Assembly (NCBI GenBank): GCA_000004985.1
Contig: GG738847.1
Direction: 5' to 3' (one strand)
Length of the DNA: 64,000 bases
Source of the DNA: Naegleria gruberi
Lineage: Eukaryota
Shown: piece after piece, positions 7-50,404 of the stretch
Layout of the letters: each line of letters begins with the position of its first letter
Position numbering within the stretch: position 1 is the first letter of the stretch
Position numbers and translations under genes: made by a program
Notes under the pieces: generated by a model
Told to the model about the DNA's origin: nothing
Seen by the model: only the letters and a program-made list of their open reading frames with translations
Database searches by the model: none

Positions 7-3000
7 ATGTTCTCTCTATATATTGTCATTTTCCTCTCTCTGTTGGCTACTGTTGTAGGATCGGTTCTTGCCTACTTCCTCTCGTTCAATATTGCTGGTG
101 AAATACCAATGCAGTTCGATACTTGTAGAAGTACCATGTCAACCGCTGGTATTTTACGTCAACTAAGAATGCATCAATCCTCTTTACAAGTTTACAATTC
201 TAGTTACAAAACCACTTCGACACTTGATATGTTTCACAATGACTTTATGGATAATCATGATATCAGACTGGAGAATTACATCAACATGTTGAAGAGAATA
301 CCTTACTATGCTCAAGCTGCACTCTATACACCAGCCATGTACGAATTCTACACCAAGGATAATATTTCCGTGGTGGTACCATTCATTCCAGAAACATCAA
401 CTGTACAAAATTTCATTTCAAGCTTTAAGAGAAATGCCTCAATGGAAGAAATTAACAATATCATTATTAGAATCTCTGAGAATATTCTTAATAATTGGCA
501 AGACAAAGATTACAATACTCCACTTTCTAACTTCGAATTCATGTACATGTGGCAAAATAAGATTCCTTTAGGAGGTTTCTACACTACCTTTTGTGAAAGT
601 TTGATTAATGCCAACTATAGTGATAGTAGTTCAAAACTTCAAGCCATGATGATTTGTTTGCTGAGTATTTGCTTTACCTATTTTGCTCTCTTCGTTGTAT
701 TTTGTGGGCTGTCAAGATTGGAACTTACTTCCACTGAGAGAATTCTCAAACTCTATGAAAAAGTTTTAAATAAGAACGTCATTGGTAAGGCCTATCATGA
801 TTTGGGAAGCAATGATGATGCAACTATCCACCTCTCAAAGAATATCTTTCTCATTCCAAAGAATTTCATCCCACTATTCGGATTTGTTTGTGTTGTTCTA
901 GTATTTTTGAGTTTTGGTATGATGTACTATGAAACCAGTGTCAATGTTAACAATACTCATGTTTCTGGCTCAGCCATCAAGGATGGTACTGCACTTATCA
1001 GAGTTGTTCACAGAATGGTCTATAGAGTGAGTGAATACTTTACCTATTTCAGTTTGCCTTCAGGTCTTCCAAATAATGATCCACTATTAACCACTCAGAC
1101 AGAATTGATTGGTTATAGAGCTAACGTAAAGGCATATCTTACTGAATTGAACAACCGATTCAATATGCTTGTCTATGGTTATGGTGGTAAACAAGAAGTT
1201 GTTGGAACCTATGAAAAAGTAGATCAACTTTTGAAAGGAGTTGCAAATTGCTCTCATTCTTACCCAAATGCGACATTCATTGAAGAGTTCCAACACTGCT
1301 ACGGTATTGAGAAGATGATTTCCATATTTGCCTCTGATACAGCTCAATTGAACGAAAGATTTTGGAATGCTGGATTCTACAATCGAACCATTGAGGCCTA
1401 TACTCTGTTGTTCAAGCTCTTTGCTATGGGTGATAAACTCTCAGACCAGATGAACATATTCATGACAACATTTGTCCAATATGCCTCCACACCAAGTGTA
1501 ACTATTATTTCAGTCTTTACCATATTTAGTCTACTTTCCTTACTATTGCTCAATTATCAATTGTACTTATCAATGGTGTCTCACTTTAGCCACGTTCAAT
1601 CTTTAAGATCAATGCTAAATTATATCCCTCTCAATATTCTTGATAGTAATGAGCATTTGAGAAACTTTATCTTGTATAATTCTGTACCAAATGGATTGGT
1701 TGAACTCTTCCAAAGAAAGAACAAGAAACAAAATAGTGGCGACTCATCTAATGTGAGAAGTATTCTTAATGCCTCTGTAGATGGTTCCATCTTGTGTAAT
1801 GAATCTGGTTTGATTGACTTGATAAATCCTGCAGCCCAAAGAATGTTTGGTTATAAACAATCTGATATTGTAGGTGCTCAAGTATTCACAATGTTCGAAA
1901 AGAAGGATAGAGAATTACTGGAAAAGACTGTTGCCGATCTCAAAGCACAAGCCAAAGGAAATGGAGAAGCCAATGCTGGTGAGTCCTTAGAATTGGAATG
2001 TGTAAGAAGAAATCAAACAACCTTTCCATCCTCTGTGAACATCTTTGTGGCTCTCTTTGATGGTATTCCAGTTTTGGCATTCATCATTAAGGATGTAACA
2101 CAAGAAAAGAAGCACAATGCATTATTGGCTGAAGAAAAATCCAAATCCGAACATTTGTTGAGAAACATCTTACCTGAAGCTGTTGCAGCCAAGTTGAAAG
2201 CAGGAGAGACATTCATTGCCGAAAAGTTTGGAGACATTACATGTTTCTTCTCCGACATGGTGGGATTTACAAGTTTGAGTTCAGATATGAATCCTACTGA
2301 ACTGGTAGGCATGTTGAATAATATTGTTAATGGATTTGATGCCTTGACTGATAAATATCATTTGGAGAAGATTAAGACCATTGGTGACGCATATTTTGTA
2401 AGTAATTTTCACATTTCTTAACCATTCAAACATTTTTCTTCCTGTATTATGCAAAAATCTTTAAAAGGCTGTTGGTGGACTGCACGCAAATGCTACTTCT
2501 GACCATCCGGAAAGAACTCTTCGATTTGCAATAGACACTTTCACTGTTATTCATGATTACAATATTACAGCCATGAACCCAATTTCTAAACAAATTAATA
2601 TTCGTATTGGTCTCAATACTGGTGGTGTGAGTAAGTAGCAGTATTAATTATTTAGTCATCCTAATAATATATTTCCTAAATTCTTAAATTGAATTGCATT
2701 TTCACACACGTGAATTAATTTGTTTTCAACAGTTGCTGGTGTCATTGGTACGAAGAAATTTGCCTATGATTTGTGGGGAGATACCATTAATACAGCCTCT
2801 AGAATGGAATCTACTTCAAAACCAGGTCGTATTCAAGTCAGTCGATCCACCTATGAAAGAGTTTACGATTTAGGATTTGATTTTGAAGAAAGAAAAGTAG
2901 AAGTGAAAGGAAAGGGATTATGCAATACCTATCTACTCAATTCAAGACATCACACGAATGCAGTGATTGAAAATGATGAACCATCAAATATACAAATATT

Positions 3001-6409: not shown

Positions 6410-6465
6410 TTTTGAAAATATTTCATAATTACCTAAGATTTTATACAACTAAATAAATTTATTTA

Positions 6466-7015
6466 TTATACACTAAACCAATTGAGGCACATTATGAATT
6501 CTCTAAAGTTGATCTTTGCATCCCCATCTTTATCTAAGCTCTTGATTAATTCTTCAAATGGATCAAGATCTTCGTATTTAGTGCAGAGTTTTTCATGGAA
6601 TACTTTGAATTCGTCCAAACTTAGCTTTTTGCTGTTATCCTTATCGAATGTTTTGAATAATTTACAAGCAGTCACAAGAAGTTTGAGATTCTCTCCTCTG
6701 AGAATTGATTTTCTTGTTGCAAGTGCTTCCCAACAATGTAAAAACTCATCAAAACCAATTGTCAAACTTCCATCATTATCCAAGTAGAGATAGATTGCTT
6801 CCAATTCTTCGTTATTGAAATTAAAACCAAGATCTGTAAATAAATTGGATGCTTCCTTCAAATCAATTTCATTATTTCCATTCTGTTTATACAATGAATA
6901 TCTTGTATTAGGTTCCAAGTTAAACAACTAAACCTACCGAATCGTATTTACTGAATAGACTCTTTATTACGTCCTTTTCCTCATCAGAGATGCTTCTTGC
7001 TTCTGTTGTAGTCAT
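6466..7015 (-). CDS. EF-hand calcium-binding protein with two exons: 6938..7015 and 6466..6882. Paralog of the gene at 9333..9956.
   Basis: Exon 1 encodes MTTTEARSISDEEKDVIKSLFSKYDS. A 55-nt intron (GTAGGT...AAACAG) follows, then exon 2 begins NGNNEIDLKEASNLFTDLGFNF with EF-hand-like loops (DKDNSKKLSLDEF, DKDGDAKINFREF). The intron sits at the same position as in the paralog. Confidence 0.7.
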
Positions 7016-12448: not shown

Positions 12449-12751
12449 TTTTTTAATAATTTAATAATTTTTAAATTATTAATTATTGGAAATATTCATT
12501 TCTAGAATGAACATTCATTCACAATCATAATACTTTCAATTTAACAGACTGAAAGATAATTCAATAGTTTCTAATTTCCTTAAATGAGATTATTATAAAG
12601 CTATTCGAAACAAATGTCCTTAATATCTTTAATTTGATTTCAATCCCAATATTTCTCATTATTATTATTCAATTATCATAATCAAACATTCACACGATTA
12701 TTATCAAATTTCCTGTCAACTGCCATTTTTCATCTAAAAAAAAACGTCAAA

Positions 12752-13930
12752 ATGCACAAAAAGACTCTCATCTTGGGCGTTGCTTTATTGCTCTTCGCCT
12801 TGTTCGCTGTTGTAGCAAGAGCTGCCGAAGAACCAGAATTCGAAATGACAGATGCCCTCGACAGATTAACTTCTGGCATGGATTGTGCCAATGAAGAAGA
12901 AGCTTTGGCTGATTCCTTGGTTGAATCTTTCATCAGATCATCAGGTGGTAGAAGCAGTGGTGGTTCCAGAGGTGGTTCCAGAGGTGGTTCTAGAGGAAGC
13001 TCCAGAGGATCATCAAGAGGAGGTTCCAGAGGTGGTTCCAGAGGATCATCATCTAGAGGATCATCAAGAGGTGGTGGTAGAAGAGGATCATCTTCTTCAT
13101 CAAGAGGTAATGGAAGAAGAGGTGCTTCTTCATCATCAAGAGGTAATGGTAGAAGATCCAATGCTAATTCTGGTGGTGGAAGAAGAGGTGGAAACACTAG
13201 AGGAGGAAACAGAAGAGGAGGAAATACTAGAGGTGGAAACAGAGGTGGAAACAGAAGAGGTGGAAATACTAGAGGAGGTAATAGAAGAGGTGGAAATACT
13301 AGAGGACCATCTAGAACTAGACCATCTACTAGACCAACCAGACCATCAACCAGACCAACTACAAGACCAACAACTAGACCAACTACTAGACCAACTGCTC
13401 CAGTAGCTGCTAGACCAACTGTCAATACTCCTGCTGGTCCAGTCGGTTCAAAGATTGCTGCTGCCATTTCTTCTAGATATGGAAATGTTGCCAAGCCAGG
13501 TGGTTATTGTGCTAGAGCTGTCAGAACTGCTGTTGAAGGTAAGTGAATTGTTGGAGTTTTTGGAGTTTTAATTCTCTATTAATATTCGAATAATTCTAGC
13601 TGCTACTGGCAAGACCATTCAAAGAACTACCAGTGCTAAGGATTATGGTCCAAGTCTTGAAAAGGCTGGATTCAAGAAGGTTTCTGGTCCACCAAAGGTT
13701 GGTGATGTTGCCATCTTTGGATCTGTTCCTGGACATCCTCACGGAGTAAGTAGTTATGAAATATTTCACACCAACTAATCTTATTAATTATGCTAATGAT
13801 GTTTCTTATATAGCATATGCAAGTATACACTGAAAAGGGATGGGTCAGTGATTTCAAACAAAGAGATCAATTCCCAGGTCAAGCTTACAGAAGTAGAAAT
13901 GCTCAAATGACAACTTACAGATCTGAATAA
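12752..13930 (+). CDS. Secreted cationic low-complexity protein with a C-terminal CHAP/NlpC-P60-like papain-fold amidase domain. Three exons: 12752..13538, 13600..13745, 13814..13930.
   Basis: Signal peptide MHKKTLILGVALLLFALFAVVARA. Long SRGG/GGNTRGGNRR repeats are followed by PTTRPTTRP linker repeats. The catalytic domain contains Cys in GGYCARAVRTAVE and His in VGDVAIFGSVPGHPHG-HMQVYTEKGW, and is split by two short introns (gtaagt at 13539; gtaagt at 13746 to tatag at 13813). Confidence 0.65.
12950..13400 (+). repeat. Coding low-complexity tandem repeats (RGGS, GGNTRGGNRR and PTTR units) within the secreted amidase gene.
   Basis: Direct repetition of agaggtggttcc, ggaaacactagaggaggaaacagaaga and ccaactactaga units. 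Confidence 0.7.
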
Positions 13931-27809: not shown

Positions 27810-29279
27810 ATGCTTGCACCACAGAAACGAGTTAGTGATTTTGGAGATGGTGGACAAATAGATCAAGTTCAAGTTGAAGAAACCACACCAAATCTTATAA
27901 CTTCCATCATACGATTGAAACAATTTCGCATCAAAGGACGATCATTTGAATTTCAAGAAGTGTTCGAAAATCCAAAAAGTGATACTTTGGTTTGTAAATG
28001 TTTGGGTGATGATGGACATGAATACGTTGTTAAAATTATTAAACTAATTGATGGAATATTTCCAAGTAATGATCCAAATGATACTTATTCAGATGGTTAT
28101 CAAGTAGGAGAATGGAGATTTGCTGAAACTGTGAAACAGTTGTTCGATTCTAGTGTGGTAACTTATGAGGTTTCGGAACTAATTGGTGAAGAAATTGTAC
28201 TTGTATCAGAATACAGAGGAATGGATATGAAAAAATATGGAAAGAACAAATCAGGAAAATTGTTTTTATGTGAAGCGATTCAAATTTTAATTAGAATTGC
28301 TAATGCATTATGCCAACTCTATAAGCATAATATAATTCATAGTGATATCAAACCTGCAAATATCTTTATTACTTTTGAGCCAACCAGTTATTCATTTGAT
28401 GTCATTGATGCTACATTGGGTGATTTGGGAATAGCCAGAACTGTTTTATCAAAAGGTCAGCCAATTTATTCATCTAATATATTTTCTACTCCTGATACTG
28501 CACACACATACTTAACACAGCACGGAACATGTGGTTATATTGCACCAGAATGTTTTAAAGGAGAACAATGTTTATTAAGTGCTGTGAAAAAAAATGGCTT
28601 CGCATTTGAATTTGTTGATGAATTATTAAGAAAAGATAGAGAAATTGTATTGGAAGCAGTTAAACAAAATGGATATGCACTTGAATATGCTGATAGGTCA
28701 TTTAGAAAAGATAGAGAAATTGTACTGGAAGCAGTTAAACAAAATGGACGTGCACTTGAATTTGTTGATGAATCATTAAGAAAAGATAGAGATATTGTAT
28801 TGGAAGCAGTTAAACAAAATGTCTGGGCACTTGAATGTGCTGATGAATCATTAAGAAAAGATAGAGAAATTGTATTGGAAGTAGTTAAATGAGATGGACG
28901 CGAACTTTGCTATGTTGATAAGTTATTAAGAAAAGATAGAGAAATTGTATTGGAAGCAGTTAAACAAAATGGCTGGGCACTTGAACATGTTGATAAATCA
29001 TTAAGAAAAGATAGAGAATTTGTATTGGAAGCAGTTAAACAAAATGGACGTGCACTTGAATATGCTGATGAATCATTGAGAAAAGATAGAGAATTTGTAT
29101 TGGAAGCAGTTAAACAAAATGGACATGCATTTGAATATGTTGATAAATCATTAAGAAAAGATAGAGAATTTGTATTGAAAGCAGTTAAACAAAATGGATG
29201 TGTATTTGAATATGTTGATGAGTCATTAAGAGAAATTATATTAGAAGCTGTCGTTAATGCTGAAACACAGAAATTATGA
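27810..29279 (+). CDS. Protein kinase with a C-terminal array of DUF4116-like 25-aa repeats. The reading frame carries an in-frame TGA at 28890..28892.
   Basis: Kinase motifs HSDIKPANIFI, DLGIAR and GTCGYIAPE. About nine repeats of the form REIVLEAVKQNGxALEYxDESLRKD follow. The same frame continues after the TGA for another 129 codons of repeats. Confidence 0.65.
28573..29250 (+). repeat. Coding tandem repeat with 75-bp period and about nine copies, near-identical at nucleotide level.
   Basis: The unit gaagcagttaaacaaaatgg...ttaagaaaagatagagaaattgtattg recurs directly. Confidence 0.8.
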
Positions 29280-29735: not shown

Positions 29736-32065
29736 ATGGGAAATCATCACACTAGTGGTTCATCAATGTTTGCATCGGTGAATGATCGTCAAGATGTGAT
29801 GAATCCGAGACAACGAAAACTTCAAGAACAACAATACGAAACTGACCAAGTTTCGAATGACGATGACGAAATGAACCAAGAATTGACTCGGATGGTCAAG
29901 GAACAGGAACAAGTCGATGAGAATGAAATTAAAAATGGTTTGCCATTTGGTGTAATTCTGTTAGGAAGTGCAGATTCAGGAAAGTGTAAGTTTGCAAATT
30001 CGAAACCTTTCTAATAATTTATTGGATGTAATTGGATGAATTTGAAATACATTTTCTAATAGCAACACTTTGGAATCGATGGAAACTACAAACTCAACCC
30101 TTGTCTCAATCAGAGAAGGTAGAATTTGCCAATTCCATCCTCACATATATTATTACATGTTTGAAACGATTACTTGATTTGGCAAAATCGACACTTTCCA
30201 AAGAAGATTATCAAAACTTGTATTCGAAACATGATTTCTCTATTGATTTGCTTTCTCAAATATCAGAATGTGGTTCAACTTTCGAATACTTATTTACGAA
30301 TCCCATTTCAAAGACGAAAATGCAATCTCTGTGGATTGATCATGATTTTATTGCACATTTACCAGCTCTCTTTATGGAACCATGTATTCAAGAGTTGTAT
30401 TTGAATCAATTTAAAGGTAAATCAGATTCGAATAATGATCATTCGAATCATCCTTACTTTCATTCGAATCAGATAGATGGCGAGGAAGGTATCGTCAATG
30501 AAATTCTATTAGGCAATTATCTGCACTACTTTTTACAAACACCTTCCTTCCTACAAGAATTATCCGAAACCTTTACACACTCTGCTGCCAACTCAATATT
30601 GAGAGATTATTCCACCTCTCCTTCAAGTGAATTGTTTTCGAAACCCATCCAATTAACTCTGAATGATATTCTCAAATCAAAGATTGTCACAACCTCAATC
30701 AACACTTTGAAATTTCAATTCTCTAAAAAATCAATCAGCACAAAAGTGATTAAAGTTATTGAGAAGAGAAAGAGAGGATTATCAGGAGCTGCTTTACCTA
30801 ATTCTGGAGTAGTTGCTTCTCCATCAGGTAATTGTCCAAATAATGAATCGATTCAAGTTCATGGAAAATGTGGAAATGTTGCAATTCCAAAATTGGTTTT
30901 GAATACAGTTCCAAAGGAGGAAAAGAGCTTGCTGCCAAAAAGTGCTCGTGGTAATTCCATGACTCCTAGAAGTAATAGTGTGAATAGTAAGCCAGTTTCA
31001 GTTTCCATTACTGCAAATGATGAGAGTGTGCAAAATTCACCACCAAAGAAGACAACCACAAAGAAATTGGTCGAATCGTTGGTTAGAAAACGATCAGGAA
31101 GCAATAATAATGCGAATGCAGCAACAACTAGCACTTCAACAAACTCAAAGGGTCCCTATTTAGTCATCTCTCCTGCAAATTCACCTCGTTCCTCAATTGC
31201 AAGTGAGGGATCTTCGTTTAGTCCATTGCTGGGAACTTCTCCATCGTCCTCATCAATGGGTATGCCTTCTCCTAATTTCAATCAGCAATCAAGTGGAAAT
31301 AATTCTGCCAACATGCAGAGTAGTTCAGGTTCGAGTGTTGTGAGGGCAATGCAAGAGAGTACATTCACTTTGGATTCATTTGAAAAGAAGAAATTACAAA
31401 AGTTTACAATACTAGATACTCCTGGAGTTATTTCTCAGAGAGATTTGGTCAGTATGACATTGAATGCATCAACTCGACCAACAGCAACATTTTCATTGAA
31501 GAGTGTAGTGTTTATGTGTTCATTGGCAGATTTTGATCTCACAACAATAGATGGAAAAGATGATAAAATTAAGAGATTGCATGACAGCTTGGCATTCTTT
31601 GAAAAGACACTTGTCATGTCAAATAATCTCAAAGAAATGAGAAGAATCCTTGTCTTTACTCATGTAGACGTTTTCGAGCATCGAATTCTCAATGAATTGA
31701 CCTCCCCAAAGAAGAAACAATTACTGGAATTGTTGGGAATTGCTGTCAATGAAGATGATTTGGAAAATTGTGAACTTGTTCACTTGACCTTCAAACACAT
31801 TGTCTCACTATTCGAAACTTTGGAAAAGAAGAATCCTCACAAGTACATTCTCGAATATTACGCCCTCAATATGATGGATACTAGAGATGTTTGCGAATTT
31901 ACCTACCACCTCACCATGAGAGATGGTTACACTAAAAAGGATTATCCATCCATGACTTCAATTAATGTCTATTCTTCACCAATAGTTTCTGGATGTGAAT
32001 ACGAGGTCATTCAAAATATCCAAATGGTCAATTCATTCTATGATATTTCTCTAATGTTCCAATAA
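29736..32065 (+). CDS. Highly divergent heterotrimeric G-protein alpha subunit-like protein. Two exons: 29736..29985 and 30063..32065.
   Basis: MGNHHT matches an N-myristoylation consensus. The P-loop-like GVILLGSADSGK|ST is split by a 77-nt intron (gtaagt at 29986 to aatag at 30062). The C-terminal region VVFMCSLADFDLTTIDGKDDKIKRLHDSLAFFEKTLVMSNNLKEMRRILVFTHVDVFEHRI aligns with the G-alpha block AIIFCVALSDYD...NRMHESMKLFDSI...ILFLNKKDLFEEKI. NKxD is changed to THVD and DVGGQ is not recognisable. A Ser/Asn-rich insert of about 300 aa is present. Confidence 0.65.
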
Positions 32066-32209: not shown

Positions 32210-34096
32210 TTAAAATTTCCTTAATTTTGATTTTGGTGTTAAATCTTCCTCAATTTCAACATCTTCATCTTCTTGACTACCATCTTCTCTGCATCGTTTC
32301 AGAGTATCAGCAAACTCCTCTTCCCAAGAATCTACTATAGCATATTCATTATCTTTCAATTCTCTTGAAAGTTTGAGAAGTGTTCGATCCAACAGGAGTC
32401 TATCAGATGCACAATTAATACTACTTGGATTGTTCATTATAGCTGTCTTGACAATTTCGTAATCATCTTGTAAATCCTCGTGAGCCCAATCCAAAGAAGT
32501 TCCCGAATTAGAAACTGCTGCCATTACAATTTCCCTATCACACTTGAATTCATCTGATACAAACTGCAAATTTGGTCCATATCCTTGAACTGCACAAAGT
32601 GTCACCTCTCTATCACGTACATTTTCCGTATTGCTTTCTGAAAATAACCATGGACATTTGTTAACTACTTGTAATGCTATTTCCTTAGTAACAAATTGTG
32701 GGTCAATAAATTGGAAGGAAAATAGCGATTGATTGAGTGCTGCTTGGACAATTTCCTCATTCTGATAATATGCAAATTCCAAGGCAAGTCCATTTTCAGA
32801 TACTGCTTTGAGAATAATATCAGGTCTATTTCTCAATCTATTATCGGCATATTGTAAAGCCAATCCACAATTAGAAACTGCTGTCACTACAATTTCATCA
32901 TCATCTTGCAGCTCTCCTGAGGTGTATCCCAGTGCCATTCCATAATTACTCACAGCAGCTAACAATACATCTCCATCATTCCTTATTTCCCTATGAGTGT
33001 AGCAAATAATCTCTCCATTCTCTTTAGCCAAATTCAATATGAAACTCTTAAAATCGGTTTTATCTGAGTGCACAAAGGCATACTGAATAGCTTCTGGGTT
33101 ATTTCTAATTGCCTCTGCTATTATCTCATCATCAACAAGATCAATATTAGCATACTCCAAAGATTCTCCATTATTTTGAACAGCTTGGAGTATCATTTCT
33201 CTTGTTTGATTTTCATCATTAATTAAACACAGCGCATTTCCATCATATTCTATTAATTTTTCAGACTCTTCGACAGGAAATCCTTCAACATTAATACTAT
33301 CAACTATTTCTCCAGAGTATTTCACAGACAACTTGGTTAATTCGATAATTTCAGAAAGAGACAAATCGTTAACATGTTGCAAATAGTATTGAGAATATGG
33401 ATGAACTTTCATGACTTCAACAAGAATTTCCTTTCCAATACAATTGCCCATAGTATCGTGACATAATCCAAGGTACAGAGCTACCTTATTACCCACTTGT
33501 CTATCTGTCACTGCTGTTGTAGTCTTAACGAATGGATTGTCATTAGCTCCCAGGATTACAATTGCATCACTTGTAACTTCTGAACCAAGATATTCCAAAG
33601 CCATGCCATTACTTTTAACTGCTTCTGTTGTAATTACCGTGTCCCAACATCCATTATTTTCAAAGACCTTAATGGCCATTCCATCCTCTTTAACAGCTTC
33701 CAATATTAAATCTTTTGTAATATATCTCCAATCCATATCCAAAATTAACATTCCATTCTGCTGAACTGCTCTTTTCCTCACTTTATGATGATTCTGTAAT
33801 CGTTGACTTGCTTTTAAATAAAAATCTCCGTGAAAATCAATATATTTTAGCATGACTTCCATATCATCACACAGTTTTTCTTCCATTTCCTCATCATTAC
33901 ACTGTTCAATCAGCAATTCCAAAGTAGAAGCATTTAACCCAGCCAAAGACAATGCATCAATCCGAAGCTTTTGATATTTTACTTGTCGTTCGCGAGAATT
34001 TTTCATAAATTTTCGGAGGAAATTGTAGGCTTGGCTGATGTGTTGATTCCCAGCATCAAAATCGATGAGATGAATGGAACAAGAAATTTCAGACAT
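32210..34096 (-). CDS. DUF4116-like repeat protein, 628 aa.
   Basis: Repeated units of the form (I/V)(L/V)xAVxxNGxALxYA...(L/R)xxDxE, e.g. DREIVMAAVSNSGTSLDWAHEDLQDDYEIV and RPDIILKAVSENGLALEFA. Confidence 0.6.
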   Translation of the reverse strand: MSEISCSIHLIDFDAGNQHISQAYNFLRKFMKNSRERQVKYQKLRIDALSLAGLNASTLELLIEQCNDEEMEEKLCDDMEVMLKYIDFHGDFYLKASQRLQNHHKVRKRAVQQNGMLILDMDWRYITKDLILEAVKEDGMAIKVFENNGCWDTVITTEAVKSNGMALEYLGSEVTSDAIVILGANDNPFVKTTTAVTDRQVGNKVALYLGLCHDTMGNCIGKEILVEVMKVHPYSQYYLQHVNDLSLSEIIELTKLSVKYSGEIVDSINVEGFPVEESEKLIEYDGNALCLINDENQTREMILQAVQNNGESLEYANIDLVDDEIIAEAIRNNPEAIQYAFVHSDKTDFKSFILNLAKENGEIICYTHREIRNDGDVLLAAVSNYGMALGYTSGELQDDDEIVVTAVSNCGLALQYADNRLRNRPDIILKAVSENGLALEFAYYQNEEIVQAALNQSLFSFQFIDPQFVTKEIALQVVNKCPWLFSESNTENVRDREVTLCAVQGYGPNLQFVSDEFKCDREIVMAAVSNSGTSLDWAHEDLQDDYEIVKTAIMNNPSSINCASDRLLLDRTLLKLSRELKDNEYAIVDSWEEEFADTLKRCREDGSQEDEDVEIEEDLTPKSKLRKF

Positions 34097-42888: not shown

Positions 42889-45800
42889 TCAAAATAACCC
42901 TTGTTGGTCCAATTCACTACTATGATAACGCCACAATTTACGTAGCAGTGATCTCTTGTAAGATCTGTAAATTGACCATACAGGATCTGCCATCTTGTCA
43001 CTATATAAGAGAATTCCTTTGAATTCACCAGTTGCCAGCATTTTAACCTTCGCTACAAGATGTGGAACTTTCTCAGTTTGACATAAGTAATAGAAGAGGG
43101 CTATATGAACTCCGTGTCCTCTCTTTCTTCCATAAATTATGCCTGCTGCTTCATAAATGTCACTAGTCGAAGCAAATAATGGACCGAGTTGATTGATTCC
43201 AGATGAATTCATTTCTGTAACGAAATTGGTATATAGCCCATTTCTTCTATTCTTGATGTGTTTTGTTATTGTGGCTCTGAGATGGTCTGTTCGTTGCTCT
43301 GGAGTGGTTGTAAATGGAGAAAGGTATTCACCCTTATCAATGGCATATCTTCTATCTGAATTCTTTTGATGATCAATGGTTTGTGTTAGTAATATTATTT
43401 TGGCAGCATTATCAAGTTCCAATGAAATTTCTGATTGTTGAGAGCCAAACATCCACTGCTTGATTTTGGTGAGATGCTTGTTAATATTCTTATTGTAAAA
43501 TTTATCAAGTTTCTGGAATAATTCTGTGGCTTTTGGAGAAAGTTGAGTCAATTCCAATACATAGTCAATTAAATCTTGATTTTCATCCACAAGTGGCTGA
43601 GAAGTAACAGTTTCAGTTTGTGAAACCTCGTCAGAAACTGTATTCTCTTCAACACCTACAAGTTTTCTCATTATCTCTCCATATTGATATATCTTATCAG
43701 ACGAATTATTTAAAAGTTCCATAAATTTCTCCTTCTTTCTAGAAACAAATTGATTAATCATTGTTTCTGTATCTACATTCAATAATTCGAACCACAAGTC
43801 AACTGAAACTTCTGGAATATTTAGCACAAAAGCTCCCTTTCTTCTCAATTCCTCCTCAGCAATATTCTTAAAGAAGAGATTTGTGTCCACTTGACTATTC
43901 GAAACATCAATCAATCCTATCTTGTTTGAACACAACAGTTGAGTGATAAATACTTCATTGTTAGGGATCACATCAAGTGTTCTACTTTCTGGCAACATGT
44001 TATACTGTGAGAAGAGTTTGGTTAAAGTTTCGGACAATTTCTCCTCCACTTTTTCTGCAGAGCATTCCTTTACAATTTGTAAACAAGTGTCCATGACTAG
44101 TTTCAATCTCAAAGCTTGGAATTCAGTGAGTTGACCTTCTGAACTTTCTTGAAGCAATTTGTACAGTACTAAAAATGGAATGGTCTTGAATTGTTCGAAA
44201 GAGTATCCCATAATATCTAATGTTGCAATGAATCCCAAAATTGGCTTCATCTTTTGTCTTGAAACCCTCCAGTGTTCTTCACTAATGTACAATGGAAGAA
44301 CTGCATTGATACTTTCTCTGGAGGCACCTGAAATAATCTTTGATTGACTGTTCGAAACTTGACCTTGACTTACAGGTACATCTTTGAAACCACCATGTGA
44401 ATCCTCAACATTATAGGCACTTCCAAGTGAGAAAGTCACAGAATCAAGGAAAGATTCGGCAGACATCATAGAGTTGGACACTGAAACAATTTGGACTCTG
44501 CTTGGATCAGCAATTGCTGCCTGAGGACGATTCACTTGTAATCCCAAACAGAGACAGTCCTTATCCTGTAATAGATCAATCCAATTTGAGGTGGTATAGA
44601 AGCATGGACCGATTTCCTCAGCTTGTTTGGAGTATTTTTCCTTAATTTCCGTAAAGTTCATTGAATCTACTGATTCTTGAATGATGTTTTCTGCCTGTTC
44701 GAATAATTCAACATTGGCTTGAGCTCTTAAATCCAATTTCTTTTGTAAGCTTCTCTTTGTGATGGATCTATAAGCAAGAGTATTCAAATTTGCAATCTTT
44801 TCATTAGATAAAGTTCCAACCATTGATTCTGCAAGAATCTTGTTAAAGTTTGCTAAAGATTCAAAAATTGGTTGAATCATTTGATAGAGAGTTCTTCTCA
44901 CTGACTTGTCACGCATCTTTCTAATGTCAGTTGTTATTGATTCAAGCTTTTCTTCAATAGCTTTACACTTGATATGAATTTCCTTAAGGGAAGAGCTGTT
45001 TTTGGTAATTAAACCAGCAGCTTCAATCAAGAACTTTTCAATTATCATGATTTGATAGGATAGTTTTTCAACTGAACTAAGTTCAGGTCTTTTAAATGCT
45101 TCATAGGAAAGTGGAATAATCAACTCATTTTCTCCAAATTCAAGATATAATTCACAATCAGGAGTAATATCAGTATTGATGAGAGATTGAATAATAAATT
45201 CAGATTTGTCATTATCTTGCTCCAACTTGACTCTTTCTCTGAATATTTCATTTCCTTCCTTATTCTTGACAATTAATTGACATGTGAATGAACTTCCCTT
45301 GACTAGTTCAGTCAAACTAGCCATACATGGGGCAATAGAAGAAACTGACTCTGCAAACTGAAAAGAACCTTGAGCAGTTCCCAATCTTGTAATATCTGTC
45401 AATAATCTTGCATCATGAACTGATGTGAAACCAATGGTATGAAATTCATAAGATTCACTCTCAGTATTTAATCGTTCTTGCAATGATTTAATTGACCCTT
45501 CTCTAGTTGAATTTGACGAATATTGATCTTGACCATCGGTAAAGAAAATAATTGCAACTTGTCCATTCAATGAACCACCATAGTTCCGAATAATTTTAAA
45601 AACAGACGAAAAGTCAGTTCCACCTCCAGCACTCACTTTCTTCACAACTTGCAACTTGTTTTCAAGTTCCATATTTGTCATGTCAATTAATTCCGAATTA
45701 CTATCAAAAACAATAAACAAAATTCTCTCATTACAACCTTCAACATTTGACAATAAAGTTTCAAGTGCCAATTTTGCTTCAGAAATTCCACTCCCAGCCA

Positions 45801-46101
45801 TCGATCCCGATTTATCCAAAGCAATAATCAATAATTTTCCTTGATTTTTCGAAGTATGCTGCTGCTGCCAGAACTCATCTCTGATCGCCAACTGAATGCG
45901 AACAATTTCAATTGGCGTTGTTGTAGTAGTATTGGTAGGATCACTCAGAGGCGAAGCAACACTGAAAAATTCTTGTTTGATGACCGACACGAAAAATGAT
46001 GCATCAGTAATTTGTGATTTTTGTTTTGCATTTTTTTTTCTTTTAAAATGTTGTAAACGTGATACGTGAACTTTGCTGATATTCATTTCTTCCACATGCA
46101 C
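42889..46101 (-). CDS. Large protein with an N-terminal von Willebrand factor A (vWA) domain, 1070 aa.
   Basis: MIDAS motifs LIIALDKSGSMAGSG and AIIFFTDGQDQ. A long alpha-helical remainder follows. Single exon. Confidence 0.75.
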   Translation of the reverse strand: MHVEEMNISKVHVSRLQHFKRKKNAKQKSQITDASFFVSVIKQEFFSVASPLSDPTNTTTTTPIEIVRIQLAIRDEFWQQQHTSKNQGKLLIIALDKSGSMAGSGISEAKLALETLLSNVEGCNERILFIVFDSNSELIDMTNMELENKLQVVKKVSAGGGTDFSSVFKIIRNYGGSLNGQVAIIFFTDGQDQYSSNSTREGSIKSLQERLNTESESYEFHTIGFTSVHDARLLTDITRLGTAQGSFQFAESVSSIAPCMASLTELVKGSSFTCQLIVKNKEGNEIFRERVKLEQDNDKSEFIIQSLINTDITPDCELYLEFGENELIIPLSYEAFKRPELSSVEKLSYQIMIIEKFLIEAAGLITKNSSSLKEIHIKCKAIEEKLESITTDIRKMRDKSVRRTLYQMIQPIFESLANFNKILAESMVGTLSNEKIANLNTLAYRSITKRSLQKKLDLRAQANVELFEQAENIIQESVDSMNFTEIKEKYSKQAEEIGPCFYTTSNWIDLLQDKDCLCLGLQVNRPQAAIADPSRVQIVSVSNSMMSAESFLDSVTFSLGSAYNVEDSHGGFKDVPVSQGQVSNSQSKIISGASRESINAVLPLYISEEHWRVSRQKMKPILGFIATLDIMGYSFEQFKTIPFLVLYKLLQESSEGQLTEFQALRLKLVMDTCLQIVKECSAEKVEEKLSETLTKLFSQYNMLPESRTLDVIPNNEVFITQLLCSNKIGLIDVSNSQVDTNLFFKNIAEEELRRKGAFVLNIPEVSVDLWFELLNVDTETMINQFVSRKKEKFMELLNNSSDKIYQYGEIMRKLVGVEENTVSDEVSQTETVTSQPLVDENQDLIDYVLELTQLSPKATELFQKLDKFYNKNINKHLTKIKQWMFGSQQSEISLELDNAAKIILLTQTIDHQKNSDRRYAIDKGEYLSPFTTTPEQRTDHLRATITKHIKNRRNGLYTNFVTEMNSSGINQLGPLFASTSDIYEAAGIIYGRKRGHGVHIALFYYLCQTEKVPHLVAKVKMLATGEFKGILLYSDKMADPVWSIYRSYKRSLLRKLWRYHSSELDQQGLF

Positions 46102-46365
46102 TCTCTAGCATTCTGCAATTGCATATGAGGCATGTGTTGATTGTGTTGCTGGTTCAGTGTGGATTTTGCATTCAATGTTAACAGTGCACTATGAGGATTG
46201 ATTGGGAATGGTGATTCAATATTTGATTTCAAATTGTTGTGTGGTTTTCAATGGTTTATTGGGATATTTCTGTATGGGATCACTATTTAATTCTAACTCA
46301 CAACTTCAGCAATATCATATGATTTGAATGTCAAGTGTCAATAGTAGAAACAAATTCATTAAAAA

Positions 46366-48475
46366 ATGTCCTCATTGACGATCATTAAAAAATGTGTCTT
46401 TGGTAGGTAGTACTCTGCTTCAATCATTCGCTCATCAACTTTAGTTGGAAGTTGTTATAGAGAAAAAACAGCACTTCTTTGTACCGTTTCGACTGGAACC
46501 TATCCGGAAGGTAAGTTTCGAATAATTATTTCACAAAAATTGATAACTTTTATAGAATATGTACCTACCGTGATGGATAATCATTATGTTACTTTGAAAT
46601 TTGAAGGAACTTCTTTTTCGTTAGGGTTGTGGGATACGGCTGGTCAAGAAGAGTAAGTTGAAAATTTGGCATTTGACAATTTGACTGTTACTAGATGGGA
46701 GTAAGTATTCAAGTAGAGATCTTTTGTGGATTGATCAAACTAGTCGTTTGAGACCACTTTCTTATCCAGAGTATGTAAAATTCTTTTCATTTCTCAAAAA
46801 CGAAACCTTTCCAATAGAACTAATGTATTTGTTGTTTGTTTTTCAATTGTAGATTACGCATCCTTCACTGATGTCAAGTATAAATGGGTTCCAGAACTCC
46901 ATCATCACTGTCCTGATGCTACAATCATCTTGTGTGCAGTCCAGATTGAACTCAGAAATGACGAAACTAGACGAATTGAAGTCACCAAAGAAATGGCAGA
47001 AGAAATGGCAAAGGAAACCAATTGTGCTGGTTATATCGAATGTTCTGCAAAAAATGGAATTGGAATTAGCGAACTACTCGAAACAATTAAGGAATTTGCA
47101 TTATTTCCTGAGAGAGCAGATAAAAAATCAAAAAAGAAATCTTCAAGCAAATCTGGAATTTTTGGAAGATTGAAGAATGTTTTCCAAGTTAAACCAACTG
47201 GTAATTCACCTAATTCATCTCCAACTATAATGGAATCGAAGCAATCTTCTGACAATTCAACAATTATTCGATTGCCAATGCTTAGTACACCAAATGTCAT
47301 GCCAGATGTCAGAACTACACCAGTAATTGAAGAGAAGCAAGCAAATAGTCCATCAATGTCAAGAGATTTCAATCAAGTTCCATTTGAGGATTGGACAGCT
47401 GAAGAAGTTTCAAAATGGCTTCAATCCAAAGGTTGCAATCAAACAGTCATTGACAGTAAGTATTTCACATGAATATTTTAACAATTGACATTTTCAAGCA
47501 TTGAAGAATAATGATTTTGGAGGAACTGCCCTGCTCTATTGTGATAAACAAGATTTAACAAGTTTGGGAATTTCTTTAGGAAATTCAATTACAATTATGA
47601 AATGGATTGAAAGTTTTAAAAAGAATTCTGACACTGGTTCAGCAACACCTTCATTGGAAAAACAATCTGTTGGAAGCAGTGTTGGTAACTCTTCATCGTC
47701 CTCCTCTGATTTCCCTTCCTCTTTCCAAATGGATTTGAAAGCTAACGAAACTTTTTCCAATAACAATGAAAAGGAGCAAGAAAATGAATTTGAAAAGAGA
47801 TATATCATTTTGGAGAAATTGGGAGAAGGTGGATTTGGAAAGGTCTATAAAGTAAAGACCAAAAAGACAAATCAAATTAGAGCTGTCAAGATTGTTTCAC
47901 CAAGTCAGGATTTCACAATCAATCAGGCCTTATCTGAAGCATTGAAACAAGCTCAATTATATAGAGATGATAATCACATTGTTCACGTGTATGATGTCTT
48001 TATTGCAGTGGAGAATTATGGGCAGATTGTTTGCATTGAAATGGATTGTATGGAGGGAAATCTACGTACAATCTTTAGAGGAAGAAAGGTTTCGGAAGGA
48101 ATGATTTGGTCAATTCTGAGGCAAATTGGAGCTGCTCTCAAGTTCCTTTCTGAGAGTGGAAAGATTGTACACAGAGATATCAAACCAGATAATATTCTTG
48201 TTAAGAAAGTGGATTTTGAAACAGACGAAATTGACGTTTATTTGAGTGATTTCGGATTGGCCAAGTCAACCCAAAATTCCATGCAAACATCACATCTTTC
48301 AGGAACCATTTTCTTCCTAGCTCCAGAAATTCTTGATTTTGGAAATTCATTGAATGGTGAGACATGTCGTACTCCTTATTCGATTGCTTCTGATATATTT
48401 GCACTAGGAGTTTCTCTCTATCAAATTATGTGTCAAACGTTGCATCGTTCCTCGCAACTAGCCAACCTTTCTTAA
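46366..48475 (+). CDS. Rho-family-like GTPase fused to a SAM domain and a Ser/Thr protein kinase. Seven exons: 46366..46402, 46445..46510, 46556..46652, 46695..46700, 46744..46770, 46818..47455, 47499..48475.
   Basis: The spliced product reads MSSLTIIKKCVFGVGSCYREKTALLCTVSTGTYPEEYVPTVMDNHYVTLKFEGTSFSLGLWDTAGQEEWDRLRPLSYPETNVFVVCFSIVDYASFTDVKYKWVPELHHHCPDATIILCAVQIELRND...YIECSAKNG. This is co-linear with RhoA. The 6-nt microexon ATGGGA supplies the EW of the QEDYD-equivalent. A SAM domain (FEDWTAEEVSKWLQSKGCNQTVID|TLKNNDFGGTALLYCDKQDLTSLGISLGNSITIMKWI) spans the last intron. The kinase carries GEGGFGKVYK, HRDIKPDNILV, SDFGLAKS and FFLAPE. Confidence 0.7.
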
Positions 48476-49249
48476 TTTCTTGAATAAATATATGTTACAT
48501 TGCAAATTAATAAAAACAAGATTGAGAACAAGTAATTATACTAATGGGTATTAAAGCTCAGGGACTGTTTCACCTTTAAGGTGATTCAGCCTTGAGACCT
48601 ACCTTAATGGATATAAATATTTATTAAAGATGTGGGCTTTCAAATATTCCCCTTTGGAATCTGACAGCCCGTTGACATTAATTGTTGTGATAATTCAACA
48701 AGAATTTCTTTTCTACTAAAATTTCTACTATATGCACTGGGACAATTCGAATTTCAATATTAAAATAGTTCAAACATTAAGCAAGACAACCATTCAAGAA
48801 TTCCTTTAATTAGTATTTCACTTCTTAAATGTTTTCTTCTTTGTCTTTTGGATCGATCTTAGTAAGTGACATATTTATTATTACTAACATTTTCAAACAG
48901 AAATATTTATTATGGCAAAATCTCTCCGTCCAGATTGTTTTAACCAATTTTTCCTGCTTTGCAGGAGTAGTTCTATTTCAATCTCGATTTTGTAAACAAC
49001 TTTTTTAACTTGCTGAATAAAGTTAATGACCTAAAAAGCAACATTCTGACCAACATATCTCATCCTTTTGGAAGAAGAATATATTGAGTAAGCTTCTACC
49101 TAATAGTTTATCAACGATTGTCTAGATTGTTTTATTGTTTCTTTTGGAGAAATAAGCTTAATACCTAAAAACAGCAGTAACCAAGTTACAAACCACCTTA
49201 TTGTATATTTATTAAATGGAATATTTTTTATGATAAATTTTTAACAAAA

Positions 49250-50404
49250 TTAAAATCCAAATTGTTCATCACTAAATGGTGACGAATACATGACATCCCA
49301 TGATCTCTTATCAACAATGCAAACGGATCCGTCTTGTTTGAAATCTTCACTACTCACACAATAAGGAGTTACCCACTCTGGTACTGATGTTAAAATATTG
49401 GCTCCCATATATCTCAAAATTGCTCTGTCAGAGCATTTAACAGACATCTCATTAAATGTAATCTCATCAAGTAAAAGTGCCAATTCCTTGTTCAATCGTT
49501 CGGTAAAATTATTCATCATGGTTGTTCCTCCAGAGAGAATTATATTATTGGAAAGATCGAGAGAATCATCATTAATTTTAGTAATGCATTCCTTGACCAA
49601 TTGTGGAATAGATGAGCAATTATTGGTAAAGAGTATTTCAGATACTTGTTTGAATTCTTCCTTACATTCTCCAATGTTAATTGTCACTGTATCAGTCACA
49701 TTGAAACTCTCATAAAGTGGGAAATTCTCACAGGTGGCACTCACATATTTTGCCTTGAGTCTATTCACAATTTCATCTGAAAAGATATTCGAATCGTGCT
49801 TTTCAAAATGTTTCTGTAAAGAATTCTTTAACTTTTCTGTCAAGTGTCTTCCACTCACACTTCCAATACACAGTGAATCCATTCTCACTTGGCCATCCAC
49901 AACAGCAATCACATACGAAGAATTCTCTCCAACATGAACAACCAATCCAGACATGAACTCCACTCCACTTGCAACCAAACTCATATAAGCAGCATCTTGA
50001 ATCGACAAGTGAGAAATCTTGAAATCTTCAAACAAGACTTTACAAATCACTTCTCTCCTTTTCAAATCATCAACATGATCCAATGGAGAATCAATAATCA
50101 AAACAGATTCCAAATTATTATCCTTTTCAATATTCAACACTTCCAAAGCCTTTGAAATATTTAATTTGAGTTCTTCCGAATATTTTACTAATTTTCCTTC
50201 AGCATCATTATCATCATCATGAAGAATATTAATTTTACGGAATGATCGGGATGGTCTATCTTCCATGATATTTGTCTTTCCACATCGAATGGTGGATTGA
50301 CTAGATAGATCAATGATAATTGCAGATGATGTTGATTGGGAATTATTTGCGAGCCAATCTTCAAAGTTTGATGAAGTAAATTCTGTGCTTTCAAAATTTT
50401 CCAT
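49250..50404 (-). CDS. Divergent actin-related protein (actin family).
   Basis: Actin-fold blocks LIIDSPLD, HVGENSSYVIAVVDGQV and NIILSGGTTMMNNFTERLNKEL. Confidence 0.75.
   Translation of the reverse strand: MENFESTEFTSSNFEDWLANNSQSTSSAIIIDLSSQSTIRCGKTNIMEDRPSRSFRKINILHDDDNDAEGKLVKYSEELKLNISKALEVLNIEKDNNLESVLIIDSPLDHVDDLKRREVICKVLFEDFKISHLSIQDAAYMSLVASGVEFMSGLVVHVGENSSYVIAVVDGQVRMDSLCIGSVSGRHLTEKLKNSLQKHFEKHDSNIFSDEIVNRLKAKYVSATCENFPLYESFNVTDTVTINIGECKEEFKQVSEILFTNNCSSIPQLVKECITKINDDSLDLSNNIILSGGTTMMNNFTERLNKELALLLDEITFNEMSVKCSDRAILRYMGANILTSVPEWVTPYCVSSEDFKQDGSVCIVDKRSWDVMYSSPFSDEQFGF

What the first reader, a model, noticed from the sequence alone, without database searches (positions are those of the whole stretch)
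46366..48475. Rho-like GTPase-SAM-protein kinase fusion gene with a 6-nt microexon and a non-canonical P-loop
Splicing seven exons reconstructs a protein co-linear with RhoA from the N-terminus through the CAAX-less end of the G domain. It then continues, with no stop, through a SAM domain (itself split by an intron) into a complete Ser/Thr kinase domain. The Rho consensus GQEDYDRLRPLSYP is only recovered if a 6-nt exon (ATGGGA, 46695..46700) flanked by a canonical AG and GTAAGT is included, giving GQEEWDRLRPLSYPE. The P-loop reads GVGSCYREKT instead of GDGACGKT. An alternative splice would delete it entirely, so the GTPase is probably atypical or regulatory. A covalently linked small GTPase plus kinase is reminiscent of ROCO/LRRK logic, but with a Rho-type G domain and a SAM linker. 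This architecture is uncommon and is a candidate self-contained signalling switch.
Basis: partly seen in the sequence, partly recalled or inferred. Interest (0 to 1): 0.75.

Follow-up and report, generated by a model that had tools for sequence, protein, structure and literature searches.

The report
Rho-like, SAM, truncated-kinase fusion gene
In the amoeba Naegleria gruberi, two neighbouring genes annotated as a "Rho GTPase" and a "protein kinase" are most likely one gene, encoding a degenerate Rho-like domain, a SAM domain and a kinase that lacks its last third; it is a lineage-specific oddity and an annotation fix, not a new kind of system.

Summary
The observation largely holds. The window is Naegleria gruberi. 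Seven exons (46366-48475) with six GT..AG introns of 42-47 nt give a 615-aa product. Pfam finds Ras 9-169, SAM 269-325 and Pkinase 392-605.

The reference annotation splits the locus into two genes: XP_002682210.1 (Rho, 253 aa) and XP_002682211.1 (kinase, 292 aa). That split cuts the SAM domain in half and drops the P-loop exons, so the fusion reading is better supported.

The 6-nt microexon is well supported by sequence:
- Its splice pattern occurs only once in the window.
- It adds 10 bits to the Ras score.
- It allows a gapless alignment to Cdc42.
- It is identical in a 98%-identical environmental relative, where all indels fall in introns.

No RNA evidence could be reached.

- The G domain is closest to Cdc42/Rac, not RhoA.
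- The P-loop is the same length as normal (GSCYREKT).
- G4 is VQIE, and the Rho insert is 8 aa shorter.
- The kinase is not complete. It stops after helix alphaF, with nothing further downstream.
- There is no COR domain, so this is not a ROCO protein.

No orthologous Rho-SAM-kinase was found. It is probably a lineage-specific pseudoGTPase-kinase fusion that may be decaying.

The parts
46366..46402 (+). Exon 1: start codon and strand beta1 (MSSLTIIKKCVF-V)
   Evidence: KCVFV aligns with KCVVV of human Cdc42. Followed by donor GTAGGT. In relative L004 the donor is GTATGT.
46403..46444 (+). Intron 1 (42 nt, GT..AG, contains an in-frame TAG)
   Evidence: It is 44 nt in L002 and 49 nt in L004, so retaining it would shift the frame there.
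46445..46510 (+). Exon 2 (66 nt): degenerate P-loop GSCYREKT (46447-46470) and helix alpha1
   Evidence: Same length as GDGAVGKT of Cdc42, with all five inner residues replaced, including both glycines. Identical in L002 and L004.
46511..46555 (+). Intron 2 (45 nt, GTAAGT..TTGAT..TAG)
   Evidence: A 1-nt insertion in L002/L004.
46556..46652 (+). Exon 3: switch I (YVPTVMDNH) to DTAGQE. Holds the ATG (46573) used by reference model XP_002682210.1
46653..46694 (+). Intron 3 (42 nt, GTAAGT..TTGAC..TAG)
   Evidence: It has its own donor, a branch-like motif 10 nt from the 3' end, and an acceptor.
46695..46700 (+). Exon 4: 6-nt microexon ATGGGA, supplying E-W of switch II (GQE-EW-DRLRPLSYP)
   Evidence: The only TAG-N6-GTAAGT in the window. 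Ras score is 125.4 bits with it and 115.1 without. Gapless alignment to Cdc42 needs it. Identical in L002/L004. Skipped in the reference model. No RNA evidence.
46701..46743 (+). Intron 4 (43 nt, GTAAGT..TTGAT..TAG)
46744..46770 (+). Exon 5: DRLRPLSYPE (rest of switch II)
46771..46817 (+). Intron 5 (47 nt, GTATGT..TAG)
   Evidence: Also spliced in the reference model.
46818..47455 (+). Exon 6: one ORF spanning the second half of the G domain, a linker and the first half of SAM. The G-domain part holds G4 VQIE (46939-46950, within AVQIE 46936-46950), G5 ECSAK (47038-47052) and a Rho insert shortened by 8 aa. The linker holds the polybasic KKSKKKSSSK (47122-47151).
   Evidence: Shows directly, without any splicing, that the Rho-like domain and SAM are in one reading frame.
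47456..47498 (+). Intron 6 (43 nt, GTAAGT..TTGAC..AAG, phase 1), splitting the SAM domain
   Evidence: Reading through it gives VIDSKYFT-stop, which is the end of the reference Rho model. Removing it restores SAM (SAM_2 31.7 bits, SAM_1 28.5 bits), while neither reference model hits SAM. Paralogue in L001 has a 44-nt phase-1 intron at the equivalent place.
47499..48475 (+). Exon 7: second half of SAM (to about 47602), a Ser-rich linker, the kinase domain (47801-48442) and the stop codon. Kinase motifs: GEGGFGKV, the VAIK-type lysine, HRDIKPDN (48170-48193), DFG (48248-48256), APE and alphaF (48389-48430). A 14-aa tail follows before the stop.
   Evidence: Pfam Pkinase positions 1-195 of 263 only. 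Reference kinase model XP_002682211.1 starts at ATG 47600.
48483..48488 (+). AATAAA 8 nt after the stop codon (possible poly(A) signal)
   Evidence: Read directly from the sequence. Its use in this organism is inferred.

Best explanation
46366-48475 is a single Naegleria gruberi gene of seven exons. The reference annotation splits it into a 'rho family small GTPase' (XP_002682210.1) and a 'protein kinase' (XP_002682211.1). The 615-aa product has three parts.

(1) A Cdc42/Rac-like G domain without a CAAX box.
- Its P-loop has lost both glycines (GSCYREKT), its G4 motif is VQIE, and its Rho insert is shortened.
- Switch I, DTAGQE, SAK and the polybasic tail are kept.

(2) A SAM domain.

(3) A Ser/Thr kinase that has every catalytic motif but ends after helix alphaF.

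Inferred origin: a Rho gene fused in frame onto a member of a Naegleria SAM-kinase family.

Inferred mechanism:
- The G domain no longer cycles GTP normally. It acts as a fixed docking or targeting module, using its Rho-type effector surface and basic patch.
- SAM mediates self-association or partner binding.
- The shortened kinase core has at best weak activity, or activity that depends on a partner.

Shown: exon structure, domain order, motif states, the truncation, and conservation in a 98%-identical relative. Inferred: splicing in vivo, nucleotide binding, kinase activity and biological role.
For: Identity and annotation:
- The window is N. gruberi (100% identity to XP_002682211.1).
- Searches give the two reference models and their limits.

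One gene:
- Exon 6 is one ORF from the G domain into SAM.
- SAM scores only across the spliced 43-nt intron. Neither reference model shows SAM even at E<=1.
- The SAM-kinase paralogue in L001 has a phase-1, 44-nt intron at the same place and no Rho domain.
- The reference Rho model covers only Ras profile positions 35-157, while the upstream exons restore positions 1-157.

Selection:
- Environmental relatives L002 and L004 are 98.1-98.4% identical.
- They have no indels in 1,562-1,765 nt of exon. Four indel events (10 nt) all lie in introns or the 5' flank.
- All splice sites and the microexon are kept.
- pN/pS is 0.36 (binomial P = 0.02).

Microexon.

G-domain state.

Kinase state: all catalytic motifs are present (read from the sequence). 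Truncation.
Against: - No transcript evidence was reachable. The exact 615-aa and 613-aa products are absent from the protein collection.
- The reference annotation calls two genes and skips the microexon.
- The intron 6 acceptor is AAG, which is less usual than YAG.
- No orthologue with this architecture was found anywhere.
- The degenerate P-loop and the kinase lacking alphaG-alphaI could equally mark a decaying gene.
- With only about 2% divergence, an intact ORF is weak evidence of function. In the G domain pN/pS is 0.55.
Confidence: 0.6

Rival explanations
1. Two separate genes, as in the reference annotation. One is a Rho-like protein ending in the unspliced 'intron 6' (253 aa or longer at its N-terminus). 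The other is an independent 292-aa kinase translated from ATG 47600.
For: This is the published annotation. The intron 6 acceptor is a weaker AAG. Intron retention is the commonest form of alternative splicing reported across eukaryotes, N. gruberi included (PMC6142364).
Against: - The split cuts a SAM domain in two. Neither product has a detectable SAM, but the joined sequence does.
- Only 127 nt separate the Rho model's stop from the kinase model's ATG, and 99 of those are in-frame SAM-coding sequence.
- The paralogue has an intron at the same site and phase.
- The donor GTAAGT and the branch-like TTGAC are canonical and conserved in L002/L004.
Confidence: 0.1
2. A decaying chimeric locus. 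A recent, lineage-specific Rho/SAM-kinase fusion is losing function through P-loop loss and a kinase cut short by a deletion or premature stop. It makes no useful protein.
For: - The P-loop lacks both glycines, G4 is altered and the Rho insert is shortened.
- The kinase lacks about 68 of 263 profile positions, while paralogues P0122 and P0123 are complete.
- No orthologue was found.
- 13 nonsynonymous against 10 synonymous codon changes versus L004, most of them in the G domain.
Against: - The ORF is intact through 588 compared codons in the relative, and indels are confined to introns.
- Overall pN/pS is 0.36.
- All twelve splice sites and every kinase catalytic motif are kept.
- The SAM domain has no amino-acid change.
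Confidence: 0.2
3. The same single gene, but the 6-nt microexon is not used. A single 91-nt intron (46653-46743) is removed, giving a 613-aa protein with GQEDRLRPLSYPE.
For: The reference model does this. Skipping keeps the frame. Other introns inferred in the window are 50-140 nt, so 91 nt is not unusual.
Against: - Skipping would delete two residues from the otherwise gapless, highly conserved switch II and lower the Ras score by 10 bits.
- The internal TAG-ATGGGA-GTAAGT is the only such pattern in the window.
- Each half-intron has its own TTGAY branch-like motif 9-10 nt before its acceptor, and is 42-43 nt like the gene's other introns.
- The encoded Trp sits where Rho proteins have Tyr/Phe. 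The L001 Rho-like gene has EF there.
Confidence: 0.2

Closest known systems
Rho-family GTPases (Cdc42/Rac1)
   Same: 46% identity to human Cdc42 over 184 aa, with Cdc42 and Rac1 as the best solved-structure matches. Conserved switch I threonine, DTAGQE, RLRPLSYP, a Cdc42-like Q in G4, SAK, and a polybasic stretch after the G domain.
   Different: P-loop is GSCYREKT instead of GDGAVGKT. G4 is VQIE instead of TQID. The Rho insert is 8 aa shorter. There is no CAAX box. It is followed by SAM and a kinase rather than ending.
ROCO proteins (LRRK2, Dictyostelium Roco/GbpC)
   Same: A Ras-superfamily G domain and a protein kinase on one polypeptide.
   Different: No COR domain and no LRR or other repeats. 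The G domain is Rho-type (Ras profile 122 bits, Roc 48 bits). A SAM domain takes the place of COR. The G domain is probably not a working GTPase.
Other Rho+kinase fusions in protein databases: Anaeramoeba flamelloides M0812_27720 (P0035) and Diversispora epigaea Glove_209g31 (P0115)
   Same: A Rho-family domain plus a Pkinase domain in one predicted protein. P0035 has the same order, with Rho at the N-terminus.
   Different: Both have canonical GDGAVGKT/GDGAAGKS P-loops and no SAM. In P0115 the kinase comes first and Rho keeps a CAAX-like end. In P0035 the kinase is cut at its N-lobe. They are not orthologues, and all are unverified gene models.
Naegleria-type SAM-kinase family (P0122 on contig L001; N. 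gruberi XP_002671859.1 = P0123)
   Same: Closest kinase relatives (33-34% identity). P0122 has SAM upstream of the kinase, with an intron at the same SAM position and phase.
   Different: They have complete kinase domains (profile to 259-260 of 263) and no Rho domain. P0122 carries C-terminal Sel1 repeats.
PseudoGTPases (e.g. p190RhoGAP pG1/pG2)
   Same: A GTPase-like domain lacking one or more G motifs, embedded in a larger signalling protein. The definition is in PMC5593906.
   Different: Here only G1 and G4 are degraded, while G2, G3 and G5 are intact. Nucleotide binding has not been tested.
SAM-containing MAP3Ks regulated by small GTPases (Ste11/Byr2)
   Same: SAM N-terminal to a Ser/Thr kinase, with small-GTPase input. 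This comparison rests on my own knowledge, not on a tool result.
   Different: Those kinases bind a separate Ras through a Ras-binding domain. Here a GTPase-like domain is covalently attached. The kinase could not be assigned to the STE group, since the best PDB matches mix CAMK and STE20 kinases.

Membership tests
Rho family of small GTPases | Highest sequence similarity to Rho/Rac/Cdc42 within the Ras superfamily | tested here: met
   All 60 listed matches are Cdc42 or Rac1/Rac3, E about 6e-48. 46% identity to Cdc42. Pfam Ras 1.7e-35.
Rho family of small GTPases | G1 P-loop GxxxxGK[S/T] | tested here: not met
   GSCYREKT: the second glycine is Glu and Gly12 is Cys. Same in L002/L004.
Rho family of small GTPases | G2 threonine, G3 DxxGQ and G5 SAK | tested here: met
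   YVPTVMDN, WDTAGQE and ECSAK all align with Cdc42.
Rho family of small GTPases | G4 [N/T][K/Q]xD guanine-specificity motif | tested here: not met
   VQIE against TQID in Cdc42: the Asp is replaced by Glu and the Thr by Val.
Rho family of small GTPases | Rho insert (about 13-aa helix between beta5 and alpha4) | tested here: inconclusive
   An 8-residue gap opposite Cdc42 125-132. A short remnant remains. No structure model could be made, because the tool refuses spliced sequences.
Rho family of small GTPases | C-terminal CAAX prenylation box | tested here: not met
   The G domain runs on into a linker, SAM and the kinase. The polybasic KKSKKKSSSK is kept.
ROCO proteins | Roc G domain followed directly by a COR domain | tested here: not met
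   No COR hit at E<=0.01. Roc scores 48 bits against Ras 122 bits.
ROCO proteins | Kinase domain C-terminal to Roc-COR (in the kinase-bearing subgroup) | tested here: inconclusive
   A kinase lies C-terminal to the G domain, but it follows SAM rather than COR and is truncated.
SAM domain | Score above the Pfam gathering threshold over most of the profile | tested here: met
   SAM_2 31.7 bits (cut-off 20.5, profile 4-62 of 66) and SAM_1 28.5 bits (cut-off 23), but only on the spliced sequence.
Eukaryotic protein kinase (active) | Catalytic motifs: Gly-rich loop, beta3 Lys, HRD, DFG, APE and the alphaF Asp | tested here: met
   GEGGFGKV, RAVKIV, HRDIKPDN, DFG, LAPE and SDIFALG.
Eukaryotic protein kinase (active) | Complete C-lobe (subdomains X-XI, helices alphaG-alphaI) | tested here: not met
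   Pfam positions 1-195 of 263. The alignment to CaMK1G ends at residue 202 of the 304-residue chain. Nothing is found downstream. Paralogues are complete.
PseudoGTPase | [quoted passage not shown] | tested here: met
   G1 and G4 deviate. The definition was read.
PseudoGTPase | Loss or alteration of nucleotide binding or hydrolysis | not testable with these tools
   Needs biochemistry, such as MANT-GTP binding and a GTPase assay.
Spliced microexon | Junction reads on both sides in mRNA | not testable with these tools
   No transcript data were reachable. RNA-seq exists under PRJEB23822.

The most novel reading that the evidence does not exclude
The 6-nt exon is a real, alternatively used microexon. 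Including or skipping it (both keep the frame) lengthens or shortens switch II of a Rho-derived pseudoGTPase by two residues (Glu-Trp). That change would retune how this built-in domain docks onto, or regulates, the attached minimal kinase core. The result would be a splicing-operated switch, rather than a nucleotide-operated one, that arose independently of ROCO proteins.
Probability: 0.07. Interest if true: 0.7.

Novelty: new variant of a known kind. Interest (0 to 1): 0.4.

Why it matters
If RNA data confirm it, two N. gruberi reference genes (XP_002682210.1 and XP_002682211.1) should be merged and extended. The result would be a documented Rho-SAM-kinase architecture, and a 6-nt microexon in a heterolobosean with very short introns.

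It adds an independent example of a small-GTPase-like domain wired covalently to a kinase. It also adds a case where both enzymatic domains look partly disabled, which is useful for studying how pseudoenzymes arise.

It does not open a long-standing question. Domain shuffling among signalling proteins is frequent in this window itself: other ORFs here combine PAS with a cyclase domain, a kinase fragment with DUF4116 repeats, and Ank with BTB.

Tried and rejected
- **Whole-product search dominated by Rho.** A search with the full 615-aa product returned mainly multi-Rho proteins and did not list even the identical reference kinase. The halves had to be searched separately.
- **My own error, corrected.** From I first concluded that the Rho part was unannotated. 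Listing the cluster members showed it is annotated as XP_002682210.1. It was hidden inside a cluster whose representative is a metagenome fragment.
- The exhaustive search refuses spliced sequences, and the structure tool's stated input rule is the same, so no full-length architecture search or G-domain structure model was possible. Only exon 6 could be searched. The multidomain hits I checked carry TIR, BTB or XK domains, not SAM-kinase.
- **Missing kinase C-terminus.** I looked with three-frame and six-frame reading, low-stringency tblastn with paralogue tails, and an HMM of subdomains IX-XI. Only alphaF was found.
- **Other searches.** The contig look-up for the reference kinase found nothing on record. 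The metagenome scan found one unrelated 31%-identical kinase.
- **Literature.** Searches on Naegleria Rho-kinase fusions, the accession numbers and Naegleria microexons found nothing relevant. The genome paper is not held.
- **Intron length as an argument for the microexon: rejected.** Other introns in the window are 50-140 nt, so a 91-nt intron would be normal.
- **A hidden canonical P-loop: rejected.** Alternative donors and acceptors around intron 1 give stops or frameshifts (read from the sequence).
- **Ciliate-type reading of the in-frame TAG in intron 1: rejected.** Intron 1 differs in length by 2 and 7 nt in the relatives.
Full report
**Source and setting.**
The window is AT-rich (about 34% G+C) and eukaryotic. 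Exon 7 of the finding is 100% identical to 'protein kinase [Naegleria gruberi]' XP_002682211.1, so the window is N. gruberi nuclear DNA.

The neighbouring genes are a VWA-domain gene on the minus strand (42889-46101) and an actin-like gene on the minus strand (49250-50404). The locus therefore stands alone on the plus strand.

**Checking the observation.**
I rebuilt the gene from the sequence.
- The exons are 46366-46402, 46445-46510, 46556-46652, 46695-46700, 46744-46770, 46818-47455 and 47499-48475.
- The introns are 42, 45, 42, 43, 47 and 43 nt, and all are GT..AG.
- Pfam finds Ras (residues 9-169, 1.7e-35), SAM_2 (270-325, 3.5e-6) and Pkinase (392-605, 1.9e-38).
- The microexon ATGGGA is exactly at 46695-46700.

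**One gene or two.**
The reference annotation has two adjacent genes here.
- XP_002682210.1, 'rho family small GTPase', is 253 aa. It starts at an internal Met (ATG 46573). It removes 46653-46743 as one 91-nt intron, so it has no microexon. It reads into intron 6 and ends ...VIDSKYFT-stop.
- XP_002682211.1 is 292 aa and starts at ATG 47600, inside the SAM domain.

Four results favour a single gene.
- Exon 6 is one ORF that runs from the second half of the G domain, through the linker, into the first half of SAM.
- Neither reference protein shows any SAM hit, even at E<=1. The sequence joined across the 43-nt intron hits SAM_2 at 31.7 bits and SAM_1 at 28.5 bits, both above the curated cut-offs.
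- A related SAM-kinase-Sel1 gene on an environmental contig (L001) has a 44-nt, phase-1 GTATGT..CAG intron at the equivalent place in its SAM domain. It starts just upstream of SAM and has no Rho domain. The intron therefore belongs to the SAM-kinase family, and the Rho part was added in front.
- The reference Rho model covers only Ras profile positions 35-157. The upstream exons supply beta1, the P-loop, alpha1 and switch I in perfect register with Cdc42.

**The microexon.**
- With it, switch II reads DTAGQEEWDRLRPLSYP and aligns to human Cdc42 (DTAGQEDYDRLRPLSYP) without a gap from residue 9 to residue 128.
- Without it, two residues are missing and the Ras score falls from 125.4 to 115.1 bits.
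- TAG-N6-GTAAGT occurs once on both strands of the 64-kb window, against 0.2 expected for the whole window. That is roughly 1e-4 for a given 91-nt stretch.
- Each flanking mini-intron has its own GTAAGT donor, a TTGAC/TTGAT motif 9-10 nt before the acceptor, and a TAG acceptor. Each is 42-43 nt, like the gene's other introns.
- A 91-nt intron would not be odd for this genome, because other inferred introns in the window are 50-140 nt. Length alone therefore does not decide the matter.
- Without RNA data I put microexon use at about 70-75%.

**Comparison with a close relative.**
Two assemblies of one environmental run (ERR1078381, PRJEB11402) cover window 46292-48189 (L002) and 46292-48392 (L004). 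They are 98.4% and 98.1% identical, and their introns are present, so they are genomic DNA.
- Against L004 there are 25 exonic substitutions and no exonic indel in about 1,765 nt.
- The four indel events (10 nt in total) all lie in introns 1 and 2 and the 5' flank.
- Intron 1 is 49 nt there, with a better donor (GTATGT). Retaining it would shift the frame.
- Every splice site, the microexon and the degenerate P-loop are unchanged.
- Against L002, pN/pS is 0.36 overall (binomial P = 0.02), 0.55 in the G domain and 0 in SAM.
- This points to purifying selection on the whole reading frame, but at 2% divergence the evidence is modest.

**State of the G domain.**
- It is closest to Cdc42/Rac, not RhoA.
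- The P-loop has the normal length, but its five inner residues are replaced: GDGAVGKT becomes GSCYREKT, and both glycines are lost.
- I first read G4 as completely lost. Cdc42 itself has TQID, however, so VQIE differs only in Thr to Val and Asp to Glu.
- The Rho insert is 8 residues shorter.
- The switch I threonine, DTAGQE and SAK are intact.
- A polybasic stretch (KKSKKKSSSK) sits where Rho proteins carry theirs before the CAAX box, which is absent.
- By the definition in PMC5593906 this is a pseudoGTPase candidate. Whether it binds nucleotide cannot be told from sequence.

**State of the kinase.**
- All catalytic motifs are present.
- The domain stops 14 residues after helix alphaF. It matches Pfam positions 1-195 of 263, and the alignment to CaMK1G ends at residue 202 of the 304-residue chain.
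- Paralogues P0122 and P0123 are complete.
- I found no trace of the missing subdomains downstream, by frame reading, by tblastn or with a purpose-built HMM.
- An AATAAA follows the stop codon by 8 nt.
- The claim of a 'complete kinase domain' is therefore wrong. From general knowledge of kinase folds, losing alphaG-alphaI should compromise stability or activity.

**Distribution.**
- No protein with Rho, SAM and kinase together turned up.
- Rho+kinase predictions do exist in Anaeramoeba flamelloides and Diversispora epigaea. They have canonical P-loops, no SAM, and a different order or extent.
- There is no COR domain, so this is not a ROCO protein.

**Interpretation.**
- Best reading (about 0.6): one lineage-specific gene in which a Rho paralogue was fused in frame onto a SAM-kinase gene. 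The G domain has become a non-cycling docking module, and the kinase is a shortened core of doubtful activity.
- Main rival (about 0.2): the same locus is simply decaying.
- Two separate genes, as annotated, is unlikely (about 0.1).
- The finding is a sound annotation correction and a curious architecture. It is a new variant of known GTPase-kinase and Rho-fusion themes, of moderate interest.

**Limits.**
There is no transcript evidence, no structure model of the spliced protein (the tool refuses spliced sequences), and no access to other Naegleria genomes.

Noticed in passing
window 48829-49008 (+): In the 774-nt gap after the stop codon there is a possible small two-exon ORF (about 46 aa, hydrophobic: MFSSLSFGSIL/KYLLWQNLSVQIV...). 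It is split by a 39-nt GTAAGT..TACTAAC..CAG intron at 48862-48900. It is unrelated to the missing kinase C-terminus.
   Followed up: partly
window 27810-28892 (+): An ORF that combines a partial protein kinase domain (Pfam positions 57-173) with three DUF4116 repeats. This is another kinase fusion in the same window. A separate 628-aa DUF4116-repeat ORF lies at 32210-34096 (-).
   Followed up: no
window 30032-32065 (+): A 677-aa ORF in which only residues 489-620 match the G-protein alpha subunit (profile 207-322 of 333). The long N-terminal part has no detected domain.
   Followed up: no
window 7-2421 (+): A PAS domain followed by the start of an adenylate/guanylate cyclase domain. The ORF ends just after a GTAAGT at 2398, so the gene probably continues after an intron.
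   Followed up: no
L001 (ENA ERZ27315067 contig, 6863 nt) 832-1320 (-) and 3700-6863 (+): An environmental Naegleria-like contig carries two tandem SAM-kinase(-Sel1) genes. On the other strand, a Rho-like gene (DTFGQVEFDRLRPFSYP, TKKD kept) sits between Kelch-repeat ORFs.
   Followed up: partly
P0001 (Anaeramoeba ignava M0811_03444, 888 aa): A predicted protein with four to five tandem Rho domains, each with a degenerate P-loop (GDQESKKT). This is another protist Rho-derived domain that has lost the second P-loop glycine.
   Followed up: no
window 12730-13546: Two long ORFs overlap almost completely on opposite strands (12730-13494 minus, 254 aa; 12752-13546 plus, 264 aa). Which of them is coding was not examined.
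   Followed up: no
window 46366-48475: Database behaviour: the word-indexed search with the full product did not list the identical 292-aa reference kinase. The annotated Rho model was also hidden inside a 90% cluster represented by a metagenome fragment. 'No hit' in those searches should not be read as 'not annotated'.
   Followed up: yes
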